Source: Azolla caroliniana (lineage: Eukaryota > Plantae > Polypodiophyta). From it: a DNA stretch of 38,711 nt. Under the pieces are notes generated by a model that worked only from the letters and a program-made list of their open reading frames with translations, made no database searches and was not told the origin of the DNA. The DNA is taken from assembly GCA_043228905.1 (NCBI GenBank), contig JBHGNT010000293.1, forward strand, positions 1 through 38,711, in the 5' to 3' direction. The translations under genes and the position numbers were made by a program. Positions 2,897-27,200 of this stretch are shown piece by piece (the stretch's first letter is position 1; every line of letters begins with the position of its first letter).

Positions 2897-2908
2897 GCTC
2901 TGATACCA
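2897..2908 (-). promoter_or_regulatory. Primer-binding site, tRNA-iMet
   Basis: Reverse complement of gctctgatacca = TGGTATCAGAGC, directly after the LTR-terminal CA. Confidence 0.92.
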
Positions 2909-3291
2909 TGTTAATAATTAGGTAATTAAGCAAGGGTGGGTGTGTGTGAGAGGAAGAGAGAGAGGAAGTTACACTTATGAACAACACAAGATGGGGGATG
3001 ATTAACTCTATATTAAATTAGCATTATCATCATCAAATACAAACATACCCATAATGAGGTATATATACATCTCATGTGCAAAGGTGCATATGTGTGAGTA
3101 GAATATAGGTACTAAGGTGTAAGTCCTATATTAAATGTACTTAGGAGTGGAGGATCTAGAATATCTCACTTAAGTACGAGGTCCTATTTAAGGCGTTATA
3201 GTCAACACTTCTAACTAGATTCTATCTAGGTAACTACAAAGTTACATGGTTGACTAACTAACTAAACTAAGTTGAGCTTGATCTCTCAACA
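2909..3291 (-). repeat. 5' LTR of the decayed copia (383 bp)
   Basis: Minus strand runs TGTTGAGAG...TTATTAACA and abuts the PBS. The outer boundary is inferred from the TG..CA termini only, since the partner LTR is outside the window. Confidence 0.75.
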
Positions 3292-5017
3292 CTTCCATTA
3301 GTTTTAAAAAGGCATATCAGCTACAAAATATAAAAATAGATGGAAAGGAACAACAATTCTTCTGAAGCCCATCTTGTGTAAGCCAATGGTTAGCCATGGA
3401 TCCTTTGTTTGATAAAATTGATTGAGCACTTCCTCACATTCCTATTCTTAGCATATTGTGCAATCAGTGTCATTCCAAGAGACTTGTTCCTGGACTAAAA
3501 GCCTGTTAAATACTACCCGTACCTCGACAAATGACCCACATTTGGCATGCAAATGTACTAATGTATTACCAATGAAATAATGTCTTTCAACAGCTTTTTG
3601 TACAATGACCTTGTGAATTTCATTGCCTGCTAATGTAGCTCTAATGCTGCCACATGCTTTCAGGCAGCAAATAAGTGTGATAGTATTTGGAGGGATGCCC
3701 AGTCTTTGCATTTGCTTAAAGAGGGAGGATGTTTTCTCACTATATCCATGTTCCGCATATCCTGCAATCACTATATTCCATGAAATTGTATTTTTCATAG
3801 GAAAAACATTAAAAATTTCTTGTGCTGAAAGAAAACCACATTTGGCCTACATATCCACTAAGGTATTGGCAATGAAGGTCTCAGTCTATAACCCTTTCGT
3901 CACAATCTTAACATGTATTACACTACCTTGATTGATGTGTCCAGTATCACCACAAACTTTCAAGCCAAAAACAAGTACAAATGTATTTGGTGAGATATTA
4001 TGTGTTTGCGTCTCCTTCGTGAGGTTTTGTGCTCCCTCACCACACTCATCTTCTGCATAACCAATGATTAGTGCAATCCACATGATCACATCTTTGGCAG
4101 GTTGTCAAAAACTTGACGTGCTGCTTCGAGCAATCCAATTTGAGCATACGTATCAACCAATGTACCGCCAATAAGAAGATCTTTGTCGAATCCTTTCTTA
4201 ACAGTGTGGACCAAGAGATTATATTCTATAATGGATGTCTTTTGAACACATTGAGCGCTTCCACAAGAAAGCCACATTTCATATACATATTAAGCAAGGT
4301 TGTTACAACAATCACATTACTTTCAAGTAATCATTTCTTTGTTATCACCACATCCATTCCATCCATCTCATAAGAAGAAATGGAATTTTGCATACATATC
4401 AATTAGCATATTAGTGATTACAAGATCATGTTCCAAACCGTGTTTTTAGATACAGTTGTGCACTTCGCATCCTTTTTCTACTACTCGAAAACTTCCACAT
4501 GTTTTCAAGTCACAAAAAAATGCCACGACATTCAGAGATATACCTTTAGAATGCATACATGAGTGCCATATAAGAGCATCCTCCCCTCACCCATTTTCAA
4601 TATCCTAAAATCAGTGCGGTCCAAGAGACTATATTCTGTAATGGAAGTCTGTTGAACACATTGAGTGCCTCCAAGAGAAAGCCACATTTTCTGTACCTAT
4701 TCAGCAAGGTTGTGCCAACAATCACATTACTTTCAAGTAATCCTTTCTTTGCTATCACCACATCCATTCTATCCATCTCGTAAGAAGAAATGGAATTCTG
4801 CATTCATATCAATTAGCATATTATTGATTACAATATCACATTATTCCAAACCTTGTTTTCCGATACAGTTGTGCACTTCTTATCCTTTTTCGACTACTCG
4901 AAAACTTCCACATGTTTTCAAATAAATATTCATGAGGTTTGGTGCTTCCTCACCATGCTCATGTTCTGCATTACCAATGATTAGTGTAGTCCATAAGATC
5001 ACATCTTTGACTAGTAG

Positions 5018-5798
5018 TAGCAATGGGCCCGGTTTCGGCTCGAACCGAACCGAACCGAAAAATCGTGGCTTAATGGTTTATAGGTTTAAAGGTAAATAAA
5101 CGGTTTGGTTTGGTTTCGAATGTTACTAATCGGTTTCAGTTCGGTTTTGAATTGACCAGTTTTGGGGTTTATTGGTTTATCGGCTTATCAATTTCTGTTT
5201 ATGTGGTTCGGTTTAAAGGTTTATAGGTTAAAAAATACTCATAAATATTCTCTATAGACTCTAACTTTCAACTTTTAATTTTAAACTCTTGTTTTAACTT
5301 ATTAAATTTTATGTGTATTATTTGTAGAGTCTCCTTTTCATTTATGATGATCAATTATGATAAGTATGATGATCAAATTTATGATTAGTATAATGATCAA
5401 ATTTATGATTAGTATGATGACCAAATTTATGATTAGTATGATGACCAAATTTTATGATAAGTATGATGACCAAATTTATGATGATTATGATGAATAAATT
5501 TATGATGATTTTCTCACACAAATTTATAATAAGTATGATGATTAATATCAATAAAAAATGGTTTGGTTTTCATTTATGATAAATTGGTTTGGTTTGGTTT
5601 TAAATTTTTCATAAACGGTTTGGTTTCTCCTATTCTTTAAACGGTTTGGTTTAACGGTTCAGCTCTAAACGGTTCGGTTTAAATGGCTTCATAAATTTTA
5701 AAACAATTTGGTTTGGTTTTTATTATTAATAAATGGTTTGGTTTAGTTTAGTTTGGTTTCAAGACCAAGAAACCGAAACTGAACTGGGCCCATGGCTA
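5018..5798. mobile_element. Non-autonomous hAT-type element (MITE), 781 bp
   Basis: TIRs TAGCAATGGGCCCGGTT / rc TAGCCATGGGCCCAGTT. 8-bp TSD ACTAGTAG (5010-5017) vs ACTGGTAG (5799-5806). Dense AACCG/CGGTT subterminal repeats. PPR sequence resumes after it. Confidence 0.88.
5340..5545. repeat. ~24-bp minisatellite inside the hAT MITE
   Basis: Tandem imperfect copies of AAATTTATGATTAGTATGATGACC. Confidence 0.85.
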
Positions 5799-6077
5799 AC
5801 TGGTAGGTTGTCAAAAACTTGATGTGTTGCTTCAATATCAACCAATGTACTACCAATAAGAAAATCTTTGTTAAATCTTTTCTTAATTATCTCAACATGA
5901 ATTTCCTCGATGAATACTAGACTACAATATGATTTAAAGTTGCAAACTAATGGTATAGTGTCTAGAGAAACAACTTGTTGTATTTTCTCAATACAACACA
6001 TTAGCTTCTCAACATCCCCACATTCAATATATCTTGAAATTAATGCATTCCACAATACTACGTCTTTGCTTGTGAGG

Positions 6078-6291
6078 TAGGAATCGACAATGGTTCGATT
6101 TAGGTTTAGCTGGTTTGGCCTGATCCAAGCCAAACCGGTTAAGCCTAAACCGTTTTGGGGTCCTCAAACCTGAACCAAACCGATCCCTAAACCGATTTGT
6201 GAACCAGGTTGGAAACCTCCCTCCCTCCCTCTCTCTTTAAACCATTTTAGCTTAACAGTTTAGGCTTGAGTCGAGCCGTTGCCGATTCCTA
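6078..6291. mobile_element. Small hAT-type MITE (~214 bp)
   Basis: 21-bp TIRs TAGGAATCGACAATGGTTCGA / rc TAGGAATCGGCAACGGCTCGA. Flanks CTTGTGAG (6069-6076) and CTTGTGAC (6292-6299), with one extra G on the left. AAACCG-rich interior. Confidence 0.82.
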
Positions 6292-9550: not shown

Positions 9551-10289
9551 TTAATGTAAGGTCATCACTTGGTGTGAATATATGCTTGTCACTTGGTTAT
9601 CTTGCATGTTTCTAAATTGGTTATCATGTATAACTATCACATAACTTTTTCACAATAAGGTAAAAATGTATAATTTTATTTTTGTAATAGTTATAAACAA
9701 TTTTATGATCTTGAGCTCTTTAAAATATATGACATTTTGTATGCTCATGATGAGTTCCTTGTGCCACAATGCATGGTTAGGGGCTTATCACAACACCATT
9801 GAGGAAATTATTAAAAAAAGAGTTAGGAGCAAAATCGAAAATATTCCTATTTTCCTACGTACGCCTTAAACTAATAAACCCACCAAGTCATAATAGTTTG
9901 TCGCACAGAAACTTGGGGCTCACAATTGCTTCAATCATGTACTCTAGATTATGAACAAGTTAGACTAACAATTGGCAATAGTTCGGTTTGGTTTGAGAGT
10001 GTCAATATTGAACCGTTAAAAAATTTGAAACTTGAACCGAACCAAACCAACCACGAAACCATTTAAACCAAAACTGTTTAAATCGAACTGTTAAACCATT
10101 AAACCGTTGTTTAGATGTTCGGTTTCAGTTTTCAAGCTAGGTCAAAATTCTGATTTTCAATTCTAAAATTCTAAAATTTTCATTATTTCAAATTTTAATT
10201 TTTAAAAAATTTAAAGATTTTCCCTAAAATGTGAGAATTAGGCTTTAAAAAATATATTTTTTAAAAACAATTGGCAACCGTAAACCATC

Positions 10290-10422
10290 TGTCAGGAACT
10301 CTATTAAGGCAGAGAAGGAATTAGTACTAAAAGAAGGATTAGTACTATTGTTGGGGAATAGTACTAAGACAGAGAAGGATTAGTACTATGAGAGGTGTCA
10401 AACTTTGAGAGAAGGAATGAGT

Positions 10423-10482
<60 letters not shown>

Positions 10483-10772
10483 TGATGCGAAAGATATATG
10501 TATTATATGACGGAAGATATACAACAGTAGTTAGAAGGCTTAAGACTGGCGTTGAACCGATTTGGTTCGAACTAATGCCTTGCGCCTCCTTTTATAGTGT
10601 CTTCAGGAATACTCCTGAAGTTTCTAGAATGTTCCAGAGAAATCTGGAATATACATCAATTTCCCAATAAAACCTAAATGAAAATAATATCCTTCAAATT
10701 ACAATTCATAACCTAATGGTAAAGTCTCGACCCGTGTAACAAAAGGTTATGGGTTCGAGTCTAGTTATGACA
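10290..10772 (-). repeat. 3' LTR of chromovirus (483 bp)
   Basis: TGTCA...TGACA ends. Differs from the 5' LTR by one substitution (tgtcAaac vs tgtcGaac) and one 4-bp GAGT indel. Confidence 0.97.
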
Positions 10773-13700
10773 CTATCCCCCCTTTAAAACGACGAGTTTC
10801 ACGAGTCGTTTTGGATTGAGGACCCGGTTTCTCGGGATATCGTCGATGGAAGTCTTCTAGAAGAGCACGAGCATTGGTCACATTCTCGATCGGTTCCCAA
10901 GTACGCTCGCTGGGACTATATCCTAGCCAATCAACTAGATAGTAGAGCTTGTTGCGAACAATCTTGGAATCGAGGATGGCAGCGACCTCATACTCAGGTC
11001 CATCTTCGAGCTCGATAGGAGGTGGAGGTTGTATAGTACGTCCTGGGATAGTGCTCTCGTGATAGGGTTCAAGGAGAGAACTATGAAACACCGGATGTAT
11101 TCGAAGTTGCGGAGGTAGCTCGAGACGAAAAGCGACACCATTAATCTTCCCGATAATACGGAAAGGACCTAATTGCCGATAATCCAACTTCTCACATGGG
11201 CGAGTAGTCTTGATGTGTCGTCGTAGCAGCCACACCCGATCTCCAATGTTAAAACTGGATGGATGTCGATGACGATCTGCGTAGTCCTTGTGTGATTGTT
11301 GAGCTTGCTGGAGTTGAGTAGATAAATCCGCTTGTATCTTGCGTAACCGCTCCAAACGATCCTCCGCGCAAGGATTTGTGGACACTTCTGGGGTTTCAAG
11401 GACACACCACCGGGGATGATATCCCGTATAAGCGTAGAATGGCGTGACTTTAGTCGATGCGTGGATAGCGTTATTATAGGCAAATTCGGCGAACTGAAGA
11501 ATATCTGCCCAGTCATTCTGATGATAGTTGAGAAAGCACCGCAGATACTGCTCCAGTGTTTGATTTGTTCGTTCGGCTTGACCGTCGGTTTGTGGGTGGT
11601 AGCCGGAGGAGAGGTTACAAGTGACCTTCAGCATTTTAAAAAGGTGCTTCCAGAATTTTGACACAAACTGGGGTCCACGATCGCTGATGATATTATCAGG
11701 GAGACCATGATGCCGACATACTTCCCGCATGACAATTTCGGCGGTGTCTTCACTAGATATTTCTTTAGTACATGGTAAGAAATGAGCCATCTTCGTATAT
11801 CGATCCACCACTGTGAGAATCGCACTGAATCCCTTAGAGACTGGAAGATCTGTAATGAAGTCAAGAGCAATGGATTGCCATGGCTTGCTTGGAATTGGTA
11901 ATGGTTCTAATAAACCATATGGATGATGTCTTGGCATTTTCGCTCTGCAGCATGTATCGCAAGTCCGAACAAAATCTTCGACAAATTGTCGCATACGGGG
12001 CCACCAGAATGATCGTTGTACTAAATCTAATGTTTTAGTACTACCAAAATGTCCTGCTGTATATGTGTCATGGCAGTTTTGTACTACTCGAAGGTGGCAA
12101 GAACCATTAGGAACATACAAAAGTTCTTTAAAGAAGAGTAATCCATCACAGTATTCGAATTGCCGATAATCCGTACCTGGTGATTGTGATTGTGAACATG
12201 ACGCTCGAGAGGGGTCAATTTGTGCTAGTATAGCTTGGGCGAAAGCGTCAGTCTTCAAGTCCTCACGTATAGTATTGGTAATGTCGGAATCCACGGGCAT
12301 GTCAAAGACCTGTGCTGCTTGCAGTCGTGCTGGACCCAAGATTACTTGCTTCTGGTTATCGAAAGCTGGCTCACCGGGACGTGGTGTTAGATACGAACGC
12401 CGTGATAATGCATCTGCCTTCCCTTGGTGCTTCCCCGGACGATATGTAATTTTGAAGTCGAAGCGTGTGAGGAAGTGGGCCCACCGAGCTTGACGTCGAT
12501 TCAGTACACGAGCATCTTGAAAGTAGGCAAGGTTCTTGTGGTCACTGAATACAGTGACCTGATGAGGAGATCCCTCCAGGAAATGCCTCCATTGCATAAA
12601 AGAATCAACTATTGCTAATAGCTCTTTATCATGAATTTCGTAGTTGATTTCGGCGGCGTCAAACTTACGGGAGTGGAAAGCCACAGGATGTAGCTTCTCG
12701 TCGTTACCCTGTTGTGACAGAATGCTCCCCAATGCGAAATCCGATGCGTCAGCTTCGATAATGAATGGTTTTTCCGGATCCACATGACCTAAAATTGGAG
12801 CTGATGTAAACGCCTTCTTAAGACTCTCGAAAGCCATGTCCGTCTCTTTAGACCAAATGAATGATTGTCCCTTCCTGGTGAGCTGTGTGAGAGGCAGCAC
12901 AATTTTTGAGTAATTTTGTATGAACTTCCGGTAAAAATTTGCAAAGCCTAGGAAGCATTGCACATCCCGCACCGAACGCGGAGTGTGCCATACTATCACC
13001 GTTTTGACCTTGGCTGGGTCCATAGATATGTTTTCTGAGGAGATGACATAGCCGAGAAACTCCACTTGGTTGCTCCCGAAACTACATTTCTCTAACTTTG
13101 CATACAGACCATGTTCTCGAAGTCGTTTTAGTACTAATAGTACATGAGAATCATGTTCTTCTTGGGTCTTTGAATAAACCAGTAGATCATCCAAATAGAT
13201 GATCAAAAAATCATCCAAGAGATCTCGAAATATATCATTCGCCATGTGCTGGAAGACTGCCGGCGCATTAGTGAGTCCGAACGGCATGACCGTATACTCG
13301 AAGTGCCCATATCTGGTGCGAAACACGGTCTTCCATTCATCTCCTGGTCGGATCCGTACGAGGTTATAGGCTCCTCGTAAGTCGATCTTCGTGAAGAACC
13401 TGGCACCGTTGATCCGTTCTAAAAGACTTGAGATAAGGGGAAGAGCATACCTATTTCTTACTGTGACCTTATTCAAGCCACGGTAATCTACAACGAGTCG
13501 AAGCGAGCCATCTTTTTTCTTGACGAAGAAAATGGGTGCGCCGGCTGGAGATTTCGAATGCCGAATGAAACCGTTCTCCAAATTCTCCTCTATATAGGCT
13601 CGAAGGACTTCTAGCTCGGTTGGTGACAAATTGTAGATCGGCCCCCATGGCGGCTCTTTTCCCGGTTGTAAGTCGATGGCGCAGTCGTACGGCCGATGAT

Positions 13701-14361
13701 GAGGAAGTGTGTTGGCTTGTACTTTATTGAACACATCAGCATACTGACGATACTTCTCGGGAAGTTGAACGGTGGACTCCTCTTTGGTGGTGCTGGAGGG
13801 TTGTACTGATATTGCGAAGAGAAACATTTCCTCCTTGCGCCCTTCCTCACGCAACTGACGTAGCGAAATGGTTGCAACCTTCTGGGTAGATCCTTGGGTT
13901 TGTCGCAACCGGATTTCCCTTGTCCTCCAATCTATGTCTGGGTCATGTAACTCGAACCATGGTAATCCTAAAACTATGGGATGTTCTGGAATACTAATAA
14001 TATTAAATGATACTACACATGTTAAGTTATCTAGGACAATATTAACGGGTTCCGACTCTTCTATGATATTACCAGAAGCAATGGGACGACCATCAATGAC
14101 TACTACTGAGGCCGGACATGGGAGCTTTCTGAGAGATATCTGATGAGCTCGGGCAAAATTCCTATCCATGAAGCAAGAATTAGCTCCGGAATCTAGAAGG
14201 GCTAAGGTATGTACTGGAGAGGTACTTTTAGTACTAACTGCTACTTGGGCTACGAACACATCACTAACTTGCTTAGAGGGAATGGAACCACTAATGGGCT
14301 GCACAGATCTAGGGCTGTCCAACCAAACGGCTCCTATTTTGGCTGGACTTAGTCGTTTAAC
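10765..14361 (-). CDS. pol: Gypsy Pol: aspartic protease, RT, RNase H, integrase, chromodomain (probably expressed as a Gag-Pol fusion by -1 frameshift)
   Basis: LLDSGA; LRLVVDYRGLN; MPFGLTNAPA; YLDD; EADASD..YEIHDKELLAI; H-H-C-C zinc motif; LDF / SDRG / QAER (DDE); LGPF; YEVAAILDSKIVRNKLYYLVDWLGYSPSERTWEP. No ATG at the ORF start (the track start is TTG), and the frame is open upstream into the gag end. Confidence 0.96.
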   Translation of the reverse strand, partial: VKRLSPAKIGAVWLDSPRSVQPISGSIPSKQVSDVFVAQVAVSTKSTSPVHTLALLDSGANSCFMDRNFARAHQISLRKLPCPASVVVIDGRPIASGNIIEESEPVNIVLDNLTCVVSFNIISIPEHPIVLGLPWFELHDPDIDWRTREIRLRQTQGSTQKVATISLRQLREEGRKEEMFLFAISVQPSSTTKEESTVQLPEKYRQYADVFNKVQANTLPHHRPYDCAIDLQPGKEPPWGPIYNLSPTELEVLRAYIEENLENGFIRHSKSPAGAPIFFVKKKDGSLRLVVDYRGLNKVTVRNRYALPLISSLLERINGARFFTKIDLRGAYNLVRIRPGDEWKTVFRTRYGHFEYTVMPFGLTNAPAVFQHMANDIFRDLLDDFLIIYLDDLLVYSKTQEEHDSHVLLVLKRLREHGLYAKLEKCSFGSNQVEFLGYVISSENISMDPAKVKTVIVWHTPRSVRDVQCFLGFANFYRKFIQNYSKIVLPLTQLTRKGQSFIWSKETDMAFESLKKAFTSAPILGHVDPEKPFIIEADASDFALGSILSQQGNDEKLHPVAFHSRKFDAAEINYEIHDKELLAIVDSFMQWRHFLEGSPHQVTVFSDHKNLAYFQDARVLNRRQARWAHFLTRFDFKITYRPGKHQGKADALSRRSYLTPRPGEPAFDNQKQVILGPARLQAAQVFDMPVDSDITNTIREDLKTDAFAQAILAQIDPSRASCSQSQSPGTDYRQFEYCDGLLFFKELLYVPNGSCHLRVVQNCHDTYTAGHFGSTKTLDLVQRSFWWPRMRQFVEDFVRTCDTCCRAKMPRHHPYGLLEPLPIPSKPWQSIALDFITDLPVSKGFSAILTVVDRYTKMAHFLPCTKEISSEDTAEIVMREVCRHHGLPDNIISDRGPQFVSKFWKHLFKMLKVTCNLSSGYHPQTDGQAERTNQTLEQYLRCFLNYHQNDWADILQFAEFAYNNAIHASTKVTPFYAYTGYHPRWCVLETPEVSTNPCAEDRLERLRKIQADLSTQLQQAQQSHKDYADRHRHPSSFNIGDRVWLLRRHIKTTRPCEKLDYRQLGPFRIIGKINGVAFRLELPPQLRIHPVFHSSLLEPYHESTIPGRTIQPPPPIELEDGPEYEVAAILDSKIVRNKLYYLVDWLGYSPSERTWEPIENVTNARALLEDFHRRYPEKPGPQSKTTRETRRFKGGIVS
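10773..10785 (-). promoter_or_regulatory. Polypurine tract
   Basis: Minus strand AAAGGGGGGATAG immediately precedes the 3' LTR. Confidence 0.88.
14310..14361 (-). promoter_or_regulatory. Predicted -1 programmed ribosomal frameshift signal
   Basis: G_TTA_AAC in the gag frame (14355-14361), 6-nt spacer, then an 11-bp stem GTCCAGCCAAA/TTTGGTTGGAC. pol lies in the -1 frame. Confidence 0.8.
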
Positions 14362-15518
14362 TCTTCTTCTAATTGGCTAAGGACATCAAATTTGTTTGCG
14401 AGATTCGGACTATTAGTACTATTAGGACTATTATGACTATGAGGATTATCAGAGATTCCTACAGAAATAGACTCGGGTTTAGTATAGTCAGAACTAACAA
14501 TGACTTGGTTTACCTGCCTTCTTGGTCTATGGGGACAGTTTATCGCGATATGCCCTGGTCCACCGCAATAAAGGCATAATCGGTTTGTTCGGCGTCGTTG
14601 CTTTTCCTCCTCCGATAGCGGCCCACGACGACGTGTAGTGTCAATTTCCATTGGAGTTGGAGTACTTACTGGAGGCGCATTATGTGACTCCCTTTGAAAA
14701 GGTTTCGCTACCACTGAGGCATAGGTAGGCTCGGATCTTGCCCTCGGCATCTGAAATTGTCGTTCCGAACGTCGCTCGAAGAGGCGGTTGTCACATCTGA
14801 CCGCTCGACTGATTGCTTCTGTTAATGATTTTGGCTCTTCAGGGAAAGTCAAGAGTAAATCCTTGACATCGTTGCGTAGACCATAGCGGAACTGCTCCAT
14901 CAATGCTTGATCATCCCAGGGGATATCGGCGGCGAGTAGGCGGAAATCTGCAGCATATGCGGAGGCTGGACGGTCACCTTGGCGTAATCGCCGGATTTTG
15001 TTGATTGCAGTCCTTATGCTGTCAGTATCTCCAAAACATGCTTTAAACTCACTTATGAATTCTTCAAAATTATTTAGTACTGGAGATTCCTTTTCTAGTA
15101 GCGGAGCGAACCATGCTAATGCTGAGCCATTTAACAACGTGCCTACTAAACCCACTTGTGATGCATCGGTGGGATATCGGGACGGATGCATTTGAATAAC
15201 TAACCGTACCTGGTTAAGAAACCCTCTAAACTGCGATCGCGTTCCATCGAACTTCGTGGGAAGGCCAATCTTGGGTTCTTTATGAATCCCTTGTGCTCCG
15301 TGCCCTTGTTGTTGCATTGCTACGATGGTTGCTTCGAGTTGTTGCACGCGTAACGCAAGTTCCCCATGCTGTTGTTGCGTTTGCTGCTTTTCTAAGGAAA
15401 TTTGCTGAAGATCCCCCAACAAGCGTTGATTTTCTTGTTCCAAAGCATGAAACTTCTCTTTCAAGCATTGAAATTCCGAGAAAACGGATTGATACTCTTC
15501 AGCGCTAACGGTGGCCAT
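14349..15518 (-). CDS. gag: Gypsy Gag (389 aa; N-terminal coiled coil, capsid, CCHC zinc knuckle)
   Basis: KFDGTRSQFRGFLNQ, LLNGSALAWF, LRQGDRPASAYAADFR, FRYGL, PMEID, CLYCGGPGHIAINC; sushi/PEG10-like Gag signature. Confidence 0.95.
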   Translation of the reverse strand: MATVSAEEYQSVFSEFQCLKEKFHALEQENQRLLGDLQQISLEKQQTQQQHGELALRVQQLEATIVAMQQQGHGAQGIHKEPKIGLPTKFDGTRSQFRGFLNQVRLVIQMHPSRYPTDASQVGLVGTLLNGSALAWFAPLLEKESPVLNNFEEFISEFKACFGDTDSIRTAINKIRRLRQGDRPASAYAADFRLLAADIPWDDQALMEQFRYGLRNDVKDLLLTFPEEPKSLTEAISRAVRCDNRLFERRSERQFQMPRARSEPTYASVVAKPFQRESHNAPPVSTPTPMEIDTTRRRGPLSEEEKQRRRTNRLCLYCGGPGHIAINCPHRPRRQVNQVIVSSDYTKPESISVGISDNPHSHNSPNSTNSPNLANKFDVLSQLEEELND

Positions 15519-15592
15519 GGGATGAAGGAAAAGGGAAATAAGAGACTAGTAGGAAAGGAGGGAGACAGAAGGAAGAGGGAGACTAGTAGACG

Positions 15593-15604
15593 AAATCGGT
15601 TCAA
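15593..15604 (-). promoter_or_regulatory. Non-tRNA (self-priming type) primer-binding site
   Basis: TTGAACCGATTT lies 2 nt inside the 5' LTR boundary, has no TGG start, and is exactly complementary to LTR minus-strand AAATCGGTTCAA at 15873-15884. Confidence 0.8.
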
Positions 15605-15606
15605 AC

Positions 15607-15743
15607 TGTCAGGAACTCTATTAAGGCAGAGAAGGAATTAGTACTAAAAGAAGGATTAGTACTATTGTTGGGGAATAGTACTAAGACAGAGAAGGATTAG
15701 TACTATGAGAGGTGTCGAACTTTGAGAGAAGGAATGAGTGAGT

Positions 15744-15803
<60 letters not shown>

Positions 15804-16093
15804 TGATGCGAAAGATATATGTATTATATGACGGAAGATATACAACAGTAGTTAGAAGGCTTAAGACTGGCGTTGAACCGATTTGGTTCGAACTAATGCC
15901 TTGCGCCTCCTTTTATAGTGTCTTCAGGAATACTCCTGAAGTTTCTAGAATGTTCCAGAGAAATCTGGAATATACATCAATTTCCCAATAAAACCTAAAT
16001 GAAAATAATATCCTTCAAATTACAATTCATAACCTAATGGTAAAGTCTCGACCCGTGTAACAAAAGGTTATGGGTTCGAGTCTAGTTATGACA
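15607..16093 (-). repeat. 5' LTR of chromovirus (487 bp)
   Basis: Direct repeat of 10290-10772. Minus-strand TATAAAA at 15911-15917 and a (TC)n tract in R/U5. Confidence 0.97.
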
Positions 16094-16918
16094 CCATCAA
16101 ACCATTTAAACCATGGTTTCAAAAATTTTAAACTGAAAGCGAATTATTAAGAAAAACTTGAACTTGAACTTAACTGAACCGAATTGTTAAGTGTTAAGCT
16201 GCAGTTTCGTGGTTTGGTTTGGTTCAAACCAAACCGTTGTTGATTGTTAAGTTAGACCGTAGATGGAGGAAGAATGACACAATCTAGAATAGATATAGAG
16301 GCATTGGGCTCCAAAAAAGATACATATAACACTAGGCCGAGAAACATATGTGAGGGGAGATCTAAACAAAAGGCAATGCCATTGATCAACCATAAAAATC
16401 ATAAACGGAGCACGACATTAATAATCAAACTTATTTCATGGCCAAGTGATCTTCACTTGGTCTATTGGCCTTTATGTTACATTTTGGTAGCAACACACAC
16501 AATACCCAATGCAAAAGTTAGGTCTTAATGGAATCAAGGCCATGAAATTTTTGGGTAGACACTTGAATTTCATGCAAATGGTGAGAAATCTTTGTTTGAA
16601 GATTTTCAACAACCCGACTATTCCGCAAGGAACAAAAGCAATGTACGATAAGGTGAATTCAAAGGCCTAGGGTTAGATAAACTATATGAGTGGAACATTC
16701 CTACCGAGTTTTAGTTAGCTTGCCAAAGGGCATATTGAGGTGCCACAAGGCCCACAAAAAACAAAAAATCCAATCTCTCACAACAAGCATTTGACTAAAT
16801 CAATGGGGATGAGACAAAACTATTTTTACCCATAAGACAAGTATTCAATTGGAGAGGCAACTCCACCTTGAGCAATAAGGTTTAGAGGATATCCTAATTC
16901 CTAACCAATAGAGGATAC

Positions 16919-17308
16919 TGTTGGGATTACGGTCCCTCCGGATGGGATGGTCGGATGTCCGGGAATCGGGAATGAAGACCCGAATGAAGAGTACCCGGTA
17001 TCGGAGCCGGATGATGAAGACCCGGTTCAGGAGCCGAATGATGAAGACCCGGTTCCGGATCCGGATGATGAAGACCCCGGCTACGGAGCCGGATGATGAA
17101 GACCCCGGCTACGGAGCCGGATGACGAATGTACCCAGAGAGAGATCCGGATGCGGGGACATATTTGTGAATATGTTTTCCAAGAGCCCTTTGAGGCTATA
17201 TTTGTAAATAGCCCGAAAGTCATATGTGTATAAATATGACTTAGGGCAAACTGTTTTGTGTTGTTGCTCATCTTTCTGTTTTCCACTTAGAGGGAGCTAA
17301 GTGAGCAG

Positions 17309-17357
<49 letters not shown>

Positions 17358-17620
17358 GAAGAGGTCGTTGCCTCTGTGTATTACCACCGCCTGTGGCGAA
17401 GACAGTGAGCTCAAGGTTGTTGCCTTGTAGCTTCACCATTGTACATCTCTGTTTATAGTGATAGTTGGAGTTTGAGGACTCCCGTGGTTTTTCCCACTTA
17501 GGGTTTTCCACGTAAAACATCCTGTGTACTCTTCTCTCTATTGTCTTCGTGCATTTGGTATTTCCCGTTTTCTGTGAGTAAATCCTATTCCTCGGTTGTG
17601 GCCGAGCACTGTGTTTAACA
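16919..17620 (+). repeat. 5' LTR of copia (702 bp)
   Basis: TGTTGGGA...TTTAACA, with 27-28-bp tandem repeats in U3, TATAAATA near 17229 and (GA)23. Confidence 0.96.
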
Positions 17621-17623
17621 AAG

Positions 17624-17635
17624 TGGTATCAGAGC
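17624..17635 (+). promoter_or_regulatory. Primer-binding site, tRNA-iMet
   Basis: TGGTATCAGAGC 3 nt after the LTR. Confidence 0.95.
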
Positions 17636-17651
17636 GACGGTAATACAGAAA

Positions 17652-20600
17652 ATGGAAGGCGGCAGCAGCGGGCAGCCGGGGATGATGGTGCTGAATGCGC
17701 AGAACTACGCCAACTGGAAGATAAAGATGGAGGATCTGCTCATTGTTCGGGACCTGTATGAACCGATCGACAGGTCGGAAATACCCAAGGGGGTACTTGA
17801 GACGGAATGGAGGCTTCTGAACCGGAAAGCCGTTGCAACCATTCGGCAATACGTCGACGTGAGCGTTCTACAACACGTGGCGAACGACACCAACGCATAT
17901 GAGATGTGGCGGAAGCTGTCGGGCCTCTACGAGAGGAAGAATGCGTTGAACCGGACCTCCCTGATGAGGAAGATAGTGAACCTCAAGTACCGGGACGGCG
18001 AGAGTATGGTGGAACACGTAAGCACGTTCATGGGATTCGTGAACCAGCTTGCGGCGATCAAGTTCCCGTTGGAGGATGCAATGCAAGCCATCATCCTGAT
18101 GTGTACATTGCCGGAAAGCTGGGAGAACTTGGTGGTGACTCTCAGCACCTCCTGCACCGAAGATAACTTGTCCCTACAAACGGTAAAGACAAGTATTTTG
18201 AACGAAGAAGCGCATCGGAGAGATAAAGAACCGGCCTCCGACTCGAAGGCGCTGCTTACCGAATCGGAACGGGGAAGACAACGGAACCGGAGTCCGCAAA
18301 GACGGGAGAAGTCGGGGACCCGGTCGCAGTCAAGAGGAAGGCCCACATGCTTCCACTGTGGGAAGCCGGGGCACTTCCGGAAGAATTGTCGGCATTACCG
18401 AAAAGACAACGGAGCCGACGACACCGATTCGAAGAAGTCACCGGAGCGAAACGGTGCATACCGGGGAGCCACGGACCGGAGAGGTCCGGATCGGCGAGGG
18501 CAGGACCGGAAAGGAACGACGGCACTCGCGGCAAGTGAAGAAGAGATAATGCTCATTACCGAAGAGAGGGAGCTGAACCTTGCCGGTGAAGAGATGACCT
18601 GGGTGGTCGATTCCGGAGCGTCGTTCCACCTGACCCCGGAGAAGAAATACTTCTCATCCTACACAGCCGGTGAGCACGGCTGTGTCCGGATGGGAAATGA
18701 AGGTACATGCCGGATTGCCGGCATAGGAGACGTGTGGCTGATGACATCAACCGGATGCAAGATGCTGCTGAAGGATGTTCGACACGTTCCGGAGGTTCGA
18801 TTGAACCTGATTTCGGCCGGGAGGCTAGACGATGAAGGCTACACGGGTAGCATCCGGAACGGTGTCATGAAGTTCAGCAAAGGGAGCCTGATAGTGGCTC
18901 GGGCCCGGAAGATCAACACACTGTACCTGATGAATTCCCGGCTATGTCCGGAGGAGCTGAACGTGGCAGCTAACACTGCCGGTGAGCTGTGGCACAAGAG
19001 ACTGTGCCACATGAGCGAGAAGGGGATGAAGAGGCTTGCAGAAGACAACCTTATTCCGGTGAAGCATGTGCATCTGGAGAAGTGCACCGATTGCCTGGCC
19101 GGTAAGCAGAACCGAGCCTCCTTCCACTCAAGGCCACCGACGAGACGTAGCACACCATTGGAGTTGGTGCACACCGACGTGTGTCAAGTAGAAACGAAGT
19201 CACATGGCGGAGCCCAGTACTTCGTGACATTCATTGATGACCACAGCCGGAAGCTGTGGACGGCACCGTTGAAGACAAAGGACCAAGTGTTGTGCGTCTT
19301 CAAAGAACTCCACGCGAGAGTGGAAAGGGAATCCGGCAAGAAGCTGAAAGCGATACGAGCGGATAACGGAGGGGAATACCGGGGGCAGTTTACTGTGCCG
19401 AAGATACCGGGGAGTACTGTCGCTCAAAGGGAATCCGGCTCGAGTTTACTGTGCCAAAGACGCCGGAACTGAACGGGCTGGCCGAGAGGATGAACCGGAC
19501 CATAATGGAGAGGGTCCGGAGTATGCTGGCGCATGCGAAATTACCCAAGGGGTTTTGGGCTGAGGCAATGTCGACGGCGACATACGTGATAAACAGATCA
19601 CCCTCAGTACCTTTGGACGGAGACACGCCGCAGAGAGTGTGGACCGGTAGGGAAGTATCCTACCGGCATCTGAAGGTGTTCGGGTGTCTCGTATATGTGC
19701 ATGTGGCAAAGGACCGGAGAGGAAAGCTAGATCCAAAGACCCGGCCATGCATATTCCTCGGTTACGGCGACGACGAGTTCGGCTACCGAGTATGGGACCC
19801 GGTCGACAAGAAGATATTCAGGAGTCGTGATATCATCTTCATGGAGGACAAGACACTCGCCGACTGGGAGTCGGAGAAGAAGATGAAGAGCTCCAAGTCG
19901 ACCGGTGAGGATCAACTCTATGAGGAGCAGTCCCGACCGGCAAGGGACCGGTTAGCACTCGAGGATCCGGCCGAAGACGGTGAAGAAACAGAACCGGCCG
20001 AGGAAGATGAAACAGATACCGGAACCGGCCCCGATCCCGAAATGGTTTCGGATGAAGAGGAAACGGAAGAGCCGGTTACCGAAGCTCCGGAACGGAGATA
20101 TCCTCTAAGAGAGAGAAGGGCCCCCCGGAGATTTCCGGAACCAGAGCATGTGCTGCTAACCGACGAGGGGGAGCCGGAGAGCTTTGAAGAAGCAAAGCAT
20201 GACACCCAGAGCCGAAAGTGGTTGAGTGCCATGCAGGACGAGATGGATTCCCTGCATGAGAACCACACATATGAACTTGTGGAGTTGCCGAAAGGAAAAC
20301 GGGCACTTCGAAACAAGTGGGTGTTCAAGCTGAAACCGGGAGATGCCGGCAACCCCCCGAGATACAAAGCCAGGATCGTGGTGAAGGGGTTCCAGCAGAA
20401 GAAGGGCGTCGACTTCGACGAGATATTTGCCCCGGTAGTGAAGATGACCTCCATCCGGACGGTGCTGAGCATAGCGGCAAGCATGGACCTCGAGGTAGAA
20501 CAGATGGACGTGAAGACGGCATTCCTTCACGGTGACCTCGAAGAAGAGATCTACATGCAGCAACCGGAAGGATTCGAGAAGAAAGGGAAGGAGCACCTGG

Positions 20601-21742
20601 TATGCCGGTTGAAGAAGAGCCTTTACGGACTGAAGCAGGCTCCCCGGCAATGGTACCGGAAGTTCGACTCTTTCATGACCGACGAAGGGTACCACAAAAC
20701 GCAGTCCGATCACTGCGTGTTTGTGAAGAAATTCGAAGGAGGAGACTTTCTAATACTCCTCCTGTACGTGGACGACATGTTGATCGTCGGACGGGACCAG
20801 GTCAAGATACGGATGCTGAAGAAGGCTCTTCACCGAACCTTCTCAATGAAGGACTTGGGTCCGGCGAGGCAAATATTAGGGATGCACATCATCCGGGACC
20901 GGAGGAAGAAGCAGTTGCGGCTGTCACAGGAGAAGTACGTGACAAAGGTACTTCACCGGTTCAACATGTCGGAAGCAAGACCGGTCGGGTCAACCCTCCC
21001 GACAAACTGCAAGTTGTCCAGCAAGCAAAGCCCCAAGACAAAGGCTGAGAAGGAGGACATGATGAAAGTACCATATGCCTCTGCCGTCGGAAGCTTGATG
21101 TACGCAATGGTGTGTACAAGACCGGACATAGGATATGCAGTCGGAGTGGTGAGCCGGTACATGAGCAATCCCGGCAAAGAGCACTGGAACACGGTCAAGT
21201 GGATACTCCGATACCTGAAGGGCACGGCAAACGTGTGCCTCCGATTCGGCTCCGGTAAGCCCGAACTCGACGGCTTTACCGATTCGGATATGTCGGCTGA
21301 TGCAGATACCAGCCCGTCCACATCAGGGTATGTGATGACGTATGCAGGGGGAGCTGTTTCGTGGCAGTCGAGGCTGCAGAAGACGGTTGCGTTGTCAACC
21401 ACGGAGGCGGAGTACATGGCGGCTGTCGAAGCCGGCAAGGAAATAATATGGATGAAGGACTTCATTAGAGAGCTCGGTATCCGGCAGGAGGAGTACCGAC
21501 TCTACTGCGACAGTCAGAGTGCCATCCACCTTGCGAAGAACGCGGCCTATCACTCCCGGACGAAGCACATCCAGCGAAGATATCACTGGATCCGGGAAAG
21601 GATAGAAGACCAGGAGTTCGTGCTGACGAAGATCCACACGGACGAGAACGGGTCAGATATGCTGACCAAAGTGCTCACACCCGACAAGCTGGAAGCGTGC
21701 TGGAAGAGGGTCGGACTGGAAAGACATCCCATGCCGAAGTGA
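17652..21742 (+). pseudogene. Copia gag-pol polyprotein broken by one frameshift in integrase (ORFs 17652-19472 and 19451-21742)
   Basis: NYANWKIKMEDLL, CFHCGKPGHFRKNC, WVVDSGAS, LWHKRLCH, VHTD / DNGGEY / NGLAER, QMDVKTAFLHG, LYGLKQAPRQW, YVDDML, EAEYMA, CDSQSA. A short insertion at 19392-19410 shifts the frame. Confidence 0.93.
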
Positions 21743-21750
21743 AGGGGGAG
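21741..21750 (+). promoter_or_regulatory. Polypurine tract
   Basis: GAAGGGGGAG just before the 3' LTR. Confidence 0.9.
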
Positions 21751-21752
21751 TT

Positions 21753-22170
21753 TGTTGGGATTACGGTCCCTCCGGATGGGATGGTCGGATGTCTGGGAAT
21801 CGGGAATGAAGACCCGAATGAAGAGTACCCGGTATCGGATCCGGATGATGAAGACCCGGTTCAGGAGCCGGATGATGAAGACCCGGTTCCGGATCCGGAT
21901 GATGAAGACCCCGGCTACGGAGCCGGATGATGAAGACCCCGGCTACGGAGCCGGATGATGAAGACCCCGGCTACGGAGCCGGATGACGAATGTACCCAGA
22001 GAGAGATCCGGATGCAGGGACATATTTGTGAATATGTTTTCCAAGAGCCCTTTGAGGCTATATTTGTAAATAGCCCGAAAGTCATATGTGTATAAATATG
22101 ACTTAGGGCAAACTGTTTTGTGTTGTTGCTCATCTTTCTGTTTTCCACTTAGAGGGAGCTAAGTGAGCAG

Positions 22171-22215
<45 letters not shown>

Positions 22216-22478
22216 GAAGAGGTCGTTGCCTCTGTGTATTACCACCGCCTGTGGCGAAGACAGTGAGCTCAAGGTTGTTGCCTTGTAGCTTCACCATTGT
22301 ACATCTCTGTTTATAGTGATAGTTGGAGTTTGAGGACTCCCGTGGTTTTTCCCACTTAGGGTTTTCCACGTAAAACATCCTGTGTACTCTTCTCTCTATT
22401 GTCTTCGTGCATTTGGTATTTCCCGTTTTCTGTGAGTAAATCCTATTCCTCGGTTGTGGCCGAGCACTGTGTTTAACA
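21753..22478 (+). repeat. 3' LTR of copia (726 bp)
   Basis: Repeat of the 5' LTR with one extra 28-bp unit, (GA)21, and about 4 substitutions. Confidence 0.96.
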
Positions 22479-23927: not shown

Positions 23928-24295
23928 ATTAATTAAGCGAGAGAGGTTAGATGGGCAAATGTAGCATTTCTTGAGATTTAACATAGTCATAATAAGCTTA
24001 GAAGCAATTAACAATTGTTTCTAACCATGCCGCTAGCATTAGGCTTGGTCTTGCATCCCTTTGGCCAAGAGGTATTGCGCATATGCCTCTCATTCTACAC
24101 CTTGAGCCAACACAAATAAACTTAACAATAAACATGTAAGTCAAGATTATATATACGTTAGATGGGCAAATGTAGCATGTCTTGAGAGTTAACATAGTCA
24201 TAATAAGCTTAGAAGCAGTTAACAAGTATTAATTAAGTGAGAGAGGTCAGATGGGCAATTGTAGCATGTCTTGAGAGTTAACATAGTCATAATAA
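23928..24295. repeat. Local tandem duplications (three imperfect copies); third copy continues at 28545-28670 after the LINE
   Basis: AGATGGGCAA.TGTAGCAT.TCTTGAGA.TTAACATAGTCATAATAA occurs three times (near 23949, 24160, 24249). Confidence 0.85.
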
Positions 24296-27200
24296 TCCAG
24301 ATATAATTGTTGTGGGCCAAGGCACCATTGTGGAGGGACGTGCCATCTATGTAACAATCAGATGGCAACAACGTATCATTGGAATAATAAATGTGTACGC
24401 GCCCAATTCGACAGCGATGCGGGCCCTTTTTTGGAGGCAATTGGCTGATGGATTGCCGATGGCAGATGCATGGATCCTCGCAGGGGATTTTAACATGACT
24501 ATGCACGCAGAAGACAAGGTGGGGGGCATGCATACGGCGGTGCAGGGGTCAGAGCTAGTTGCATGGGATTTGTTGATGGGTAGAATGGGAGTGAAAGATG
24601 CTTGGTATGTACTAAAAAAGCCTCGGAGCTCATTATGCTTCTCAAGAGCAGGCTGTAATATAAATGGCTATTGTATGTCTCGCATAGACAGAATATACAT
24701 AAGCTCGGAATTGGAAAAATATGGCAGCAATGTTGAAACCATCGCAGGTTCAGCTTACTCTGATCACATGCCGGTTTCGATTACGTTGGTCACTCAGAGG
24801 TTGAACAAAAGGGACTGCAACTTAAGGATTAGTAATAAGCTTTTTGAGGATGTGGAGGTGAGAAGTAAGATAAGGAGTATATGGGAAAATAATCTAGCTG
24901 GTTGTGGTGCTTTGGATAATCTTCAAGGAAAGATTATTGAAACTTCAAAGTATTTGCATGAAGAGACTAAAAATAGATTGGAGAGATCTAAGGAAAGAGA
25001 GGTGAGACTAAGAAGACCGATAGCGGCTGCCCAAAGAATGCTCCAGAAAAATCCCAAGTGTCTTTGGTCAAGATCAGGTTTGGAGGCTGCCAAAGAAACA
25101 CTACAGTGACTGATTGTGTCAAGAAATAAGATGGTATTCAGGAGTTCAGCAACTTGGTGGAGCAGGAATGGGGACAAGGTGAACCAACAATTTTTTAAGT
25201 TTAAAAAACCGAGCACAATTGGTAACTTCATTCCTAAACTGATCAAGGAGGATGGTTCACTGTCAAAAGATGTATCAGAGATCATGGAGGCAGTCACATC
25301 TCACTATAATGGGCTACTATCAAATAATTATAGTCTCCCAGACCAGCCCTCACTGGCAGAATTTGTATTAGAGGGAATGCAACCAAGAATTTCAGAGGTT
25401 GCACAAGTTAAGTTGTCAGGGCCACTCTTGGAAGAGGAGGTGTCAGATGCTCTGGCAAGTATATGTAGAACGTCTTGTCCAGGAGATGATGGATTATCAA
25501 AAGATTTTTATGAAAAATTTTGGGAAATAATTAAGGTTGACCTGGTTGCTGGACTAAATGAGGCATGGGATGATGGGTACCTCCCTGAACATTTTAAAGA
25601 GGGACTAATATTTCTAATTCCTAAGGTAAAGGGTATACTATCAGATGTGAGGCAATGGAGACCGATTACGTTGCTCAACACAATCTATAAGATTTTTGCT
25701 AATATGCTGGCCAAGAGGGTCAAACCCCACTTACATGGGCTAATTAATGTTGGACAAACAAGATTCATGGAAAATAGATGTATAATTGATAATGTGTTGA
25801 CCTTTTGGGAAGCGATTGTCCTGGCGAAGAAAACCAATCAACATATTGCATGCCTCATGCTTGACTTTGAGAAGGCATATGATAGAGTACAATGGCCTTT
25901 TTTAGACAAAGTCATGGAGCGGTTGGGACTACCCTCAAAATGGAGAGCAGCTGCATTGGCGCCTTACAAAGGAAGCTTGAGTAGGGTGTTGGTACTAGGG
26001 CAACAGGGCCCATCAATTCCATTATGCAAGTCTGTCAAACAGGGGTGCCCATTGGCCCCCTACCTTTATTTATTTATCTCAGAGGCATTCTCTTTCTTTT
26101 TAAATAGACCGGATGCAGGAATTCGGGGTTTGGTTGTCCCACATGCTTGTAAGGACTTGTTGGACTCCATGTATGCAGATGACACCATGCTCTATCTGCA
26201 AGGCAATGATGCTAATTTACAGCAGGCTGAAAATCGAATTGAGTTGTTCTGTAAAGCATCAGGTGGGAAAATTAATTGGAACAAAAGTAGAGGGTTTTGG
26301 GTAAGTCCAAACTCTTGGCCGAATTGGCAACCTAATGCTGATTTTCAATGGGTTCCTAATGGAAGGCTGTTAAGTATTTGGGCTTTTTGGTGGGAATAGA
26401 GATTCAGAAAAATCAATAACTTGAGCAAGTGAAAGACAAAATCAGAAAAAAGCTTCGGTTATGGGCATCAGTAAAGCTTTCCCTTGCAGGTAGAGTGGTT
26501 GTGGTAAACCATATTTTGTTGGCCACCATGTGACACTCGTTGGCATGCTGGATGTTAGATAAAGAGTGCATAAAAATATTAAGGCAATGGTGAGAGGGTT
26601 CCTTTGGTCGGGTAGAGACCATGAGACTGCTTCAGCTAAAGTGGCCTGGAGTTGTTTGATCAAGGCAAAAAGTCAAGGTGGACTTGGGATGGTGGATCCA
26701 GGTCACCAAAGTAAGGCTTTACTTGGTAAGCTCTTGGTGCGAAGTCTCCAACCTGGACCAAAATTGTCGAAATTGCTTCTTAGAGACAGAGCTGAACTCT
26801 GGAGTCCGAGGAATGGCGGCCCTTGGAAGGCAAAGATGTGGTGGTTGTTCAGTCCAAGCCTAACGTTAAAAGAACCTACTAGCATGGAGGATAGGGTGGC
26901 CCGCACCATAATGAGGGCCTGGTCAAGTTTAAGAGAGGGGTTGGTCTTAATGCAGCCAAAAACAATGGAGGAACAACTCCGTCAACCTCTGTTTTTGGAA
27001 CCCCAGGATTCGAAGTGATGATGGTATGATGCTTGGTCAGAAAAAATACTTGCCATGGGGAAAAATGGTAGGGTACAATGTTAGTTCGGTAAGAGACTGG
27101 GAGGAGTTCAAAAGGAGAAGAAGGGAGGGTCTGGTTGGAAGTCCTAGATTTACCGGTAGGCTAGAAAAGGTTACCCACTTGATAGATAAGGCTGTTGATG

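What the first reader, a model, noticed from the sequence alone, without database searches (positions are those of the whole stretch)
15593..15917. Plant chromovirus with a tRNA-independent, self-priming PBS
Seen: the PBS position has no TGG/tRNA complement. Instead 12 nt (TTGAACCGATTT, 15593-15604) are perfectly complementary to AAATCGGTTCAA in the LTR (15873-15884), which begins 33 nt downstream of the first base of TATAAAA (15917), where a Pol II start is expected. Known: S. pombe Tf1 primes reverse transcription by annealing the first 11 nt of its RNA to the PBS, followed by RNase H cleavage. Inference: this intact element uses the same mechanism. Most plant LTR elements, including both copias here, use tRNA primers. 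Self-priming has been proposed for Tf1/sushi- and, as I recall, Tcn1-type elements, so the mechanism is not new, but an intact young copy with such clean geometry is a good experimental target.
Basis: partly seen in the sequence, partly recalled or inferred. Interest (0 to 1): 0.8.

Follow-up and report, generated by a model that had tools for sequence, protein, structure and literature searches.

The report
Self-priming retrotransposon in a fern
A young Ty3/gypsy retrotransposon, in what is likely a fern genome, has no tRNA primer site; the 12 bases after its left repeat pair instead with the predicted start of its own RNA, and relatives keep this pairing through matched changes on both sides, so it likely primes its own copying as yeast Tf1 does, a mechanism already predicted in print for this group of elements.

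Summary
Observation confirmed. A 5,804-nt chromovirus (minus strand, 10290-16093; 5-bp TSD; LTRs differ by one substitution and one microsatellite indel) has a PBS (15593-15604) with no TGG. It is the exact complement of 15873-15884, which starts 33 nt after the TATA box; 3 of 5,000 shuffles match as well. In 33 related elements plus this one, 27 of 34 pair 12/12; 8 of the 12 pairs change on both sides, about 23 times on the same tree branch. Pairing stops sharply at the predicted RNA start. Tf1-type self-priming is the best reading (0.9); the RNA start and the cleavage are not shown. The mechanism is known: REXdb predicts it for 83% of 1,500 Tcn1 elements (PMC6317226), and this scan noted it before in two moss elements on other DNA. 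What is added: covariation evidence, a likely fern host (the papers read list Tcn1 only in mosses and club-mosses), and no sign of Tf1's third duplex. Formal Tcn1 membership is likely but was not tested against named references.

The parts
15607..16093 (-). 5' LTR, 487 nt, TGTCA...TGACA
15911..15917 (-). TATA box (TATAAAA)
   Evidence: a TATA motif lies 32-33 nt before the primer in 31 of the 34 anchored elements, 36-38 nt in 2, cut off by the contig end in 1 (a TATA 26-42 nt upstream was required by the search where sequence allowed)
15873..15884 (-). Predicted self-primer: first 12 nt of the predicted transcript (predicted start 15884, C|A)
   Evidence: RNA start inferred, not measured
15865..15871 (-). 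Conserved bases after the primer that can extend the helix against the LTR end (2 + 3 pairs after an unpaired C at 15872)
   Evidence: mostly invariant, one pair changes on both sides in 2 of 32 rows; weak
15605..15610 (-). LTR end plus the 2-nt spacer (GACA-GT), partner of the extension helix
15593..15604 (-). Primer-binding site, complement of the self-primer; no TGG
15519..15592 (-). Pyrimidine-rich leader between PBS and gag start
   Evidence: no conserved pairing with the LTR interior found
14349..15518 (-). gag, 389 aa (capsid, CCHC zinc knuckle)
14355..14361 (-). Predicted -1 frameshift site GTTAAAC at the gag/pol overlap
   Evidence: pol is in the -1 frame; GTTAAAC in 36 of 52 records that reach the gag end, A/C-TTAAAC in 6, none in 10; frameshifting inferred
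14317..14348 (-). Predicted 11-bp stem-loop 6 nt after the slippery site
10765..14376 (-). pol open frame, 1203 aa: protease, RT, RNase H, integrase, SH3, chromodomain
10840..10992 (-). Chromodomain with the three aromatic cage residues (Y, W, Y)
   Evidence: cage positions as described in PMC3350952, matched by eye
10773..10785 (-). Polypurine tract
10290..10772 (-). 3' LTR, 483 nt; one substitution and one 4-nt microsatellite indel against the 5' LTR; holds the second copy of the primer sequence (10552-10563)
16094..16098 (-). Target-site duplication GATGG, left copy
10285..10289 (-). Target-site duplication GATGG, right copy

Best explanation
This is a young, intact Ty3/gypsy chromovirus whose primer-binding site is the exact complement of 12 bases in its own LTR, and it likely starts reverse transcription by Tf1-type self-priming: the RNA is predicted to begin at 15884, its first 12 bases would fold back onto the PBS about 270 nt downstream, and the element's own RNase H would cut after base 12 to free a 3' end for the reverse transcriptase. 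Shown: the complementarity, its position, its covariation in relatives, the lack of TGG, the enzymes' catalytic motifs. Inferred: the RNA start, the cut and its place, the enzyme that cuts. If, as the title of a Tf1 paper states, the primer is not removed, plus-strand synthesis would copy it into the new PBS, which would explain why the two sides change together and why the match ends exactly at the predicted RNA start. The host is likely a fern.
For: 12/12 match, 3 of 5,000 shuffles. Of 79 records examined (78 related loci and the window), 34 held both the LTR end and the LTR promoter: 27 of 34 pair 12/12 Watson-Crick, 30 with G-U allowed, 32 pair at 11 or more; 15 distinct primer/PBS types, own pairing 11.6 against 9.0 for swapped partners, 0 of 100,000 permutations as high. 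On a gag tree (50-100% identity) positions 1-8 need 25 changes on the primer side, 28 on the PBS side and only 30 for the pair, so about 23 fall on the same branch. Independent count on a 32-row alignment: 96.9% of cells paired, 63 cells changed on both sides, 0 of 500 shuffles as high; slid partners give 18-50%; RNAalifold finds the same 12 pairs unaided. Boundary: primer positions 1-12 pair in 26-29 of 29 leaders, position -1 in 3 of 29, position 13 in 0 of 29. A further distant element (L078) has a different, perfect 11-nt pair 32 nt after its TATA box. G-U intermediates exist (L001, L002). Pol nests among fungal elements. Literature: REXdb predicts self-priming for 83% of 1,500 Tcn1 elements; Tf1 mechanism as reviewed in PMC7175516.
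Against: No RNA start, primer RNA or cDNA end was observed. The third duplex described for the Tf1 structure (PBS-adjacent leader with the LTR interior) was not found: mean z -0.09 against shuffles, own -4.87 against swapped -4.77 kcal/mol, longest match 2.9 against 3.0 nt. The extension helix is short and mostly invariant, and its ends are also constrained as integrase ends. Positions 10-12 of the helix and the lack of TGG in relatives were built into the search anchors and are not evidence. Relatives come from short-read metagenome contigs of a few related assemblies and may be collapsed copies. SM-Tcn1 of Selaginella was reported with no self-priming signal (PMC2864245), so the trait is not universal in the group.
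Confidence: 0.9

Rival explanations
1. A tRNA fragment, not the element's own RNA, is the primer; the LTR copy is incidental. The window's 12-mer ends in a motif that resembles the tRNA T-arm (recalled resemblance).
For: Half-tRNA priming is predicted for other plant lineages (Osser, Bryco, Bianca). The host's tRNA set could not be searched (no genome held).
Against: 14 different PBS sequences among 34 elements, each tracking its own LTR copy; a fixed host RNA would hold the PBS constant and give no reason for the LTR copy to follow it. No TGG for a full tRNA.
Confidence: 0.03
2. The helix is real RNA structure or is kept by DNA-level copying between the two inverted 12-mers, but priming is by another route (a host or protein primer).
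For: Covariation shows pairing or copying, not priming. The third Tf1 duplex was not found.
Against: The PBS-side copy starts 2 nt after the LTR, where priming must start, in all 34 anchored elements; no other primer site is present in the window's element; the match stops at the predicted RNA start; the same layout is proven to prime in Tf1.
Confidence: 0.05
3. Chance complementarity in an AT-rich repeat.
For: A single 12-mer is short.
Against: 3 of 5,000 shuffles; covariation across relatives.
Confidence: 0.01

Closest known systems
Plant Tcn1-clade chromoviruses (REXdb, Neumann et al. 2019, PMC6317226; PpatensLTR and SM-Tcn1, Novikova et al. 2010, PMC2864245)
   Same: Predicted self-priming by REXdb's own rule (10 bp or more, starting 0-5 nt after the LTR); 5-bp TSD; length within 5.5-9.4 kb; gag and pol in overlapping frames; chromodomain with aromatic cage; pol closer to fungal than to seed-plant elements.
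   Different: Host is likely a fern, whereas both papers list the clade only in mosses and club-mosses, and a PCR survey of 26 ferns and horsetails did not report it. Not placed on a tree with named Tcn1 references. SM-Tcn1 itself was reported without a self-primer.
Tf1 and Tf2 of Schizosaccharomyces pombe; Tj1, Tosmo1-3, Tcry1 (Tf1/sushi group)
   Same: PBS complementary to the predicted 5' end of the element's own RNA; a helix extension next to the PBS; chromodomain integrase.
   Different: Predicted primer 12 nt (10-12 among relatives) against 11 nt in Tf1; the third duplex of the 'pretzel' was not found; gag and pol are split by a predicted -1 frameshift (that Tf1 has one frame is recalled).
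Tcn1 of Cryptococcus neoformans
   Same: Proposed self-priming and a programmed gag-pol frameshift.
   Different: Fungal host; no direct sequence comparison was possible.
TAR lineage of Ty1/copia (Houba, Osr-1)
   Same: Predicted self-priming in plants (89% of 203 elements).
   Different: Other superfamily, other domain order.

Membership tests
Ty3/gypsy chromovirus | Domain order PR-RT-RH-IN with a C-terminal chromodomain, between LTRs with TG...CA ends | tested here: met
Tf1/sushi self-priming elements | PBS not complementary to a tRNA 3' end (no TGG) | tested here: met
   for the window's element; the host's tRNA set itself could not be searched
Tf1/sushi self-priming elements | PBS complementary to a segment of the element's own 5' LTR, kept across relatives | tested here: met
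Tf1/sushi self-priming elements | That segment is the 5' end of the transcript | tested here: inconclusive
   TATA spacing and the sharp pairing boundary fit; only contigs, no raw RNA reads, were available
Tf1/sushi self-priming elements | Primer released by the element's RNase H and used by RT | not testable with these tools
   needs cDNA ends or an in vitro assay; catalytic motifs are present
Tf1 three-duplex 'pretzel' structure | Second duplex: bases just before the PBS pair with LTR bases after the primer | tested here: inconclusive
   5 pairs, 28-32 of 32 rows paired at each, one pair changed on both sides in 2 rows; pairing probability varies from 0 to 1 between elements
Tf1 three-duplex 'pretzel' structure | Third duplex: bases just after the PBS pair with the LTR interior | tested here: not met
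   no better than shuffles or swapped partners. The published figure was not seen, only its text, so the geometry tested is my reading. The element is not filed as having the full pretzel.
Tcn1 clade (REXdb) | RT-RH-INT phylogeny: one clade with PpatensLTR, SM-Tcn1 and Cryptococcus Tcn1 | tested here: inconclusive
   No named Tcn1 reference was among the hits. The pol core lies in a 27-row group (SH-aLRT 97) with chytrid and Mucoromycota elements, apart from the one seed-plant and two Closterium rows (quick tree, long branches among the outer rows)
Tcn1 clade (REXdb) | Chromodomain with aromatic cage (95% of members; also in Chlamyvir and some Galadriel) | tested here: met
Tcn1 clade (REXdb) | 5-bp TSD, 5.5-9.4 kb, gag and pol in overlapping frames | tested here: met
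   5-bp TSD, 5,804 nt, overlap in the -1 frame
tRNA-primed plant chromoviruses (Tekay, Reina, CRM, Galadriel) | PBS complementary to a tRNA 3' end, mostly tRNA-Met | tested here: not met

The most novel reading that the evidence does not exclude
A fern carries its own thriving radiation of fungal-type self-priming chromoviruses, outside the moss and club-moss range in print and perhaps from a separate transfer out of fungi, and these elements prime with a stripped-down structure (a 10-12 bp helix, one unpaired C at the cut, a short extension) without Tf1's third duplex; the primer re-writes the PBS at every cycle, so primer and PBS drift together free of any host tRNA.
Probability: 0.2. Interest if true: 0.55.

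Novelty: new member of a known kind. Interest (0 to 1): 0.3.

Why it matters
Self-priming in plants has been predicted from complementarity in single elements; the papers read here report no test of it in a plant. The matched changes across a family, and their sharp end at the predicted RNA start, are stronger evidence and fix the expected start and cut site to the base, so the prediction can be tested by simple RNA-end mapping. A fern host would widen the known range of this fungal-type lineage and bears on whether it entered land plants once or more often. The mechanism itself is established in yeast and already assigned to this lineage, which limits the surprise.

Tried and rejected
No whole genome is held, so copies in this genome and host tRNAs could not be searched. 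Viral contigs: 28 pattern matches, none a relative. ARAGORN: no tRNA in the window; Rfam: nothing at 15400-16200. Sequencing runs: 12 listed, all kept as contigs, one on record as RNA; 8 were laid. They show related LTR and gag pieces but cannot show a start, a strand or expression; one search listed no changed letter inside either 12-mer among the 40 rows shown, with 121 rows not shown, so I draw nothing from it. Third pretzel duplex: not found. A hairpin between the end of U3 and the primer sequence, which could hide the 3' LTR copy of the primer: present in 11 of 32 elements at z below -1.5, absent in the rest, permutation 272 of 20,000 and driven by one element; kept as a weak lead only. 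Fold-back junctions (PBS joined to reversed U3): 0 of 79 records. Records dropped before the count of 34: 22 had no LTR end; of these 14 have under 60 nt upstream, 7 have unrelated upstream DNA with no LTR anchor, and 1 (L078) was missed by the motif and does pair; scattered CA-TGG strings in 8 of the 22 were not followed up. 23 had a PBS-like motif but no anchored primer upstream: 3 have it in the 3' LTR of the same contig (12/12, 12/12, 11 + 1 G-U), 3 pair at 10-11 of 12, and 17 gave none in the second pass; by eye 8 of these are cut short by the contig end, 2 are decayed, 7 have unrelated upstream DNA. Only the best 80 of 427 related stretches were returned. Cluster look-up of 10 pol relatives gave no plant or fungal names. 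PDB: best hit Ty3 Gag-Pol, no Tf1 entry among 27 hits.

Full report
The element. The finding lies at the left end of a complete LTR retrotransposon on the minus strand, 16093-10290 (5,804 nt). The LTRs are 487 and 483 nt, both TGTCA...TGACA, and differ by one substitution and one 4-nt indel in a (CT)n tract; GATGG is duplicated on both sides; a polypurine tract precedes the 3' LTR. gag (389 aa) and pol (1203 aa open frame) overlap, pol in the -1 frame; Pfam finds capsid, zinc knuckle, protease, RT, RNase H, integrase, SH3 and chromodomain. The chromodomain has the three aromatic cage residues (matched by eye to the positions in PMC3350952). It is a young Ty3/gypsy chromovirus.

The observation. 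After the 5' LTR come GT and TTGAACCGATTT (15604-15593), with no TGG. The exact complement lies at 15884-15873, 33 nt after the first base of TATAAAA. In 5,000 dinucleotide shuffles of the LTR, 3 gave a match this long. The predicted leader RNA folds with this helix in both the best and the centroid structure. Both copias in the window have a PBS starting with TGG, a useful positive control.

Relatives. A gag alignment of 52 proteins brought 78 loci from metagenome contigs, the best of 427. I located the PBS by an LTR-end motif and the primer by the conserved bases after it plus an upstream TATA, without using primer positions 1-9. Positions 10-12, the TATA window and the lack of TGG are fixed by these anchors and prove nothing. 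Of 79 records, 34 had both anchors, 23 had only a PBS-like motif and 22 had no LTR end (the 45 are accounted for under Tried and rejected). Among the 34, with gag 50-100% identical, 27 pair 12/12, 30 with G-U allowed, 32 at 11 or more. There are 15 distinct primer/PBS types, 9 of them perfect Watson-Crick pairs; own partners pair at 11.6 of 12, swapped partners at 9.0, and 0 of 100,000 permutations reach the observed sum. On a gag tree, positions 1-8 need 25 changes in the primer, 28 in the PBS and 30 in the pair state, so about 23 changes fall on the same branch on both sides (quick tree, parsimony). On a MAFFT alignment of 32 leaders (29 of the 34 after leaving out four near-duplicates and one contig cut just before the primer, plus three imperfect ones from the second pass), 96.9% of cells pair, 63 cells have changes on both sides, 0 of 500 shuffles reach this, and slid partners pair at 18-50%; RNAalifold predicts the same 12 pairs. 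L078 adds a different perfect 11-nt pair 32 nt after its TATA, and L067/L071 pair over 10 nt, so the primer length runs 10-12 nt. The match has sharp edges: positions 1-12 pair in 26-29 of 29 leaders, position -1 in 3, position 13 in 0. The base before position 1 is C in 28 of 33 and position 1 is A in 32 of 34, as expected of a plant transcription start (recalled rule). The caveat is that these are short-read contigs from a few related assemblies.

Mechanism. [quoted passage not shown] The same is inferred here, with a start at 15884 and a cut after base 12, before an invariant unpaired C (30 of 30). A reference title seen says the Tf1 primer is not removed; if so here, plus-strand synthesis would copy the primer into the PBS, and covariation that ends at the RNA start is what self-priming predicts. 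A tRNA primer predicts a constant PBS; 14 PBS sequences were seen among 34. The text of bioRxiv 10.1101/2022.12.06.519325 (passages; figure not seen) describes a three-duplex 'pretzel' for Tf1. Here a short second helix is possible (5 pairs, mostly invariant), but a third, between the leader after the PBS and the LTR interior, is no better than shuffles or swapped partners. RNA data could not settle the start: all runs were contigs.

Host and lineage. A lipase exon in the window (33988-35088) is 59-63% identical to Adiantum lipases and about 45% to those of mosses, lycophytes and seed plants; in a tree of 41 rows (40 of the 120 listed hits) it groups with the Adiantum rows at SH-aLRT 100, on a long branch, while the one Ceratopteris row falls elsewhere. 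The host is therefore likely a fern; this rests on one gene. The pol core is 58% and 55% identical to elements of Powellomyces and Cunninghamella, 45-48% to fish and frog elements and 39% to the one seed-plant hit, and nests with the fungal rows (44 of 120 hits used). No named Tcn1 reference was available, so formal membership is untested.

What is known. Neumann et al. 2019 (PMC6317226; passages; summary table; the per-element table was too large to read) predict self-priming for 83% of 1,500 Tcn1 elements, with 5-bp TSDs and mostly overlapping gag/pol frames, and list the clade only in mosses and club-mosses. Novikova et al. 2010 (PMC2864245; passages and section 6) found Tcn1 in mosses and Selaginella, did not report it in a PCR survey of 26 ferns and horsetails, and saw no self-primer in SM-Tcn1. 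Searches for Tcn1 with fern, fern genome, Azolla or Ceratopteris, and for fern chromoviruses in REXdb, gave no fern record (passages of PMC8282616 and PMC13469084). These searches cover main text of open papers only; repeat tables in fern genome supplements may already list it. The original Tf1 papers, Butler 2001 and Goodwin and Poulter 2001 were seen as titles only. I had read the REXdb paper before seeing them and did not check their sequences.

Verdict. The feature is real and very likely a Tf1-type self-primer (0.9). It is a new member of a known kind. The covariation, the likely fern host and the missing third duplex are modest additions. Interest 0.3.

Noticed in passing
window 14317-14361 (minus): Predicted -1 frameshift signal at the gag/pol overlap: GTTAAAC, 6 nt spacer, 11-bp stem-loop; the heptamer is kept in 36 of 52 related records, with TCAAAC variants in one subfamily.
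   Followed up: partly
run X6, contig 22, on window 15873-15955: One 201-nt contig (depth 3.5) joins the end of U5 and the PBS to the reverse complement of U3: a fold-back through the 12-nt complementarity. It could be a plus-strand cDNA that primed on itself, or a library chimera; not seen in 79 records.
   Followed up: partly
window 15875-15889 (minus); L078 before its primer: The end of U3 can form a hairpin with the primer sequence, which at the RNA's 3' end would hide the second primer copy. Strong in 11 of 32 elements (12 bp or so in L078), absent in the rest.
   Followed up: partly
window 33988-35088 (+): Class 3 lipase exon that groups with Adiantum lipases; basis for the fern host.
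   Followed up: yes
window 16919-22478 (+): Young Ty1/copia element with LTRs of about 700 nt, 98-100% alike, a TGG-type PBS, and its coding region split over two frames.
   Followed up: partly
window 1-2920 (minus): Decayed second copia with a TGG-type PBS near 2900.
   Followed up: partly
window 24282-28330 (+): LINE-like element: endonuclease, RT and zinc-binding domains over three frames.
   Followed up: no
window 3448-4104 and 5759-6163 (minus): Broken frames that read like PLS-type PPR repeats (by eye).
   Followed up: no
window 5307-5565: Tandem array of a 24-nt unit, about 8 overlapping registers.
   Followed up: no
window 15615-15710 (minus): Several TAGTACTA palindromes in U5 form two local hairpins; copy number varies among close relatives and they are absent from distant ones.
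   Followed up: no
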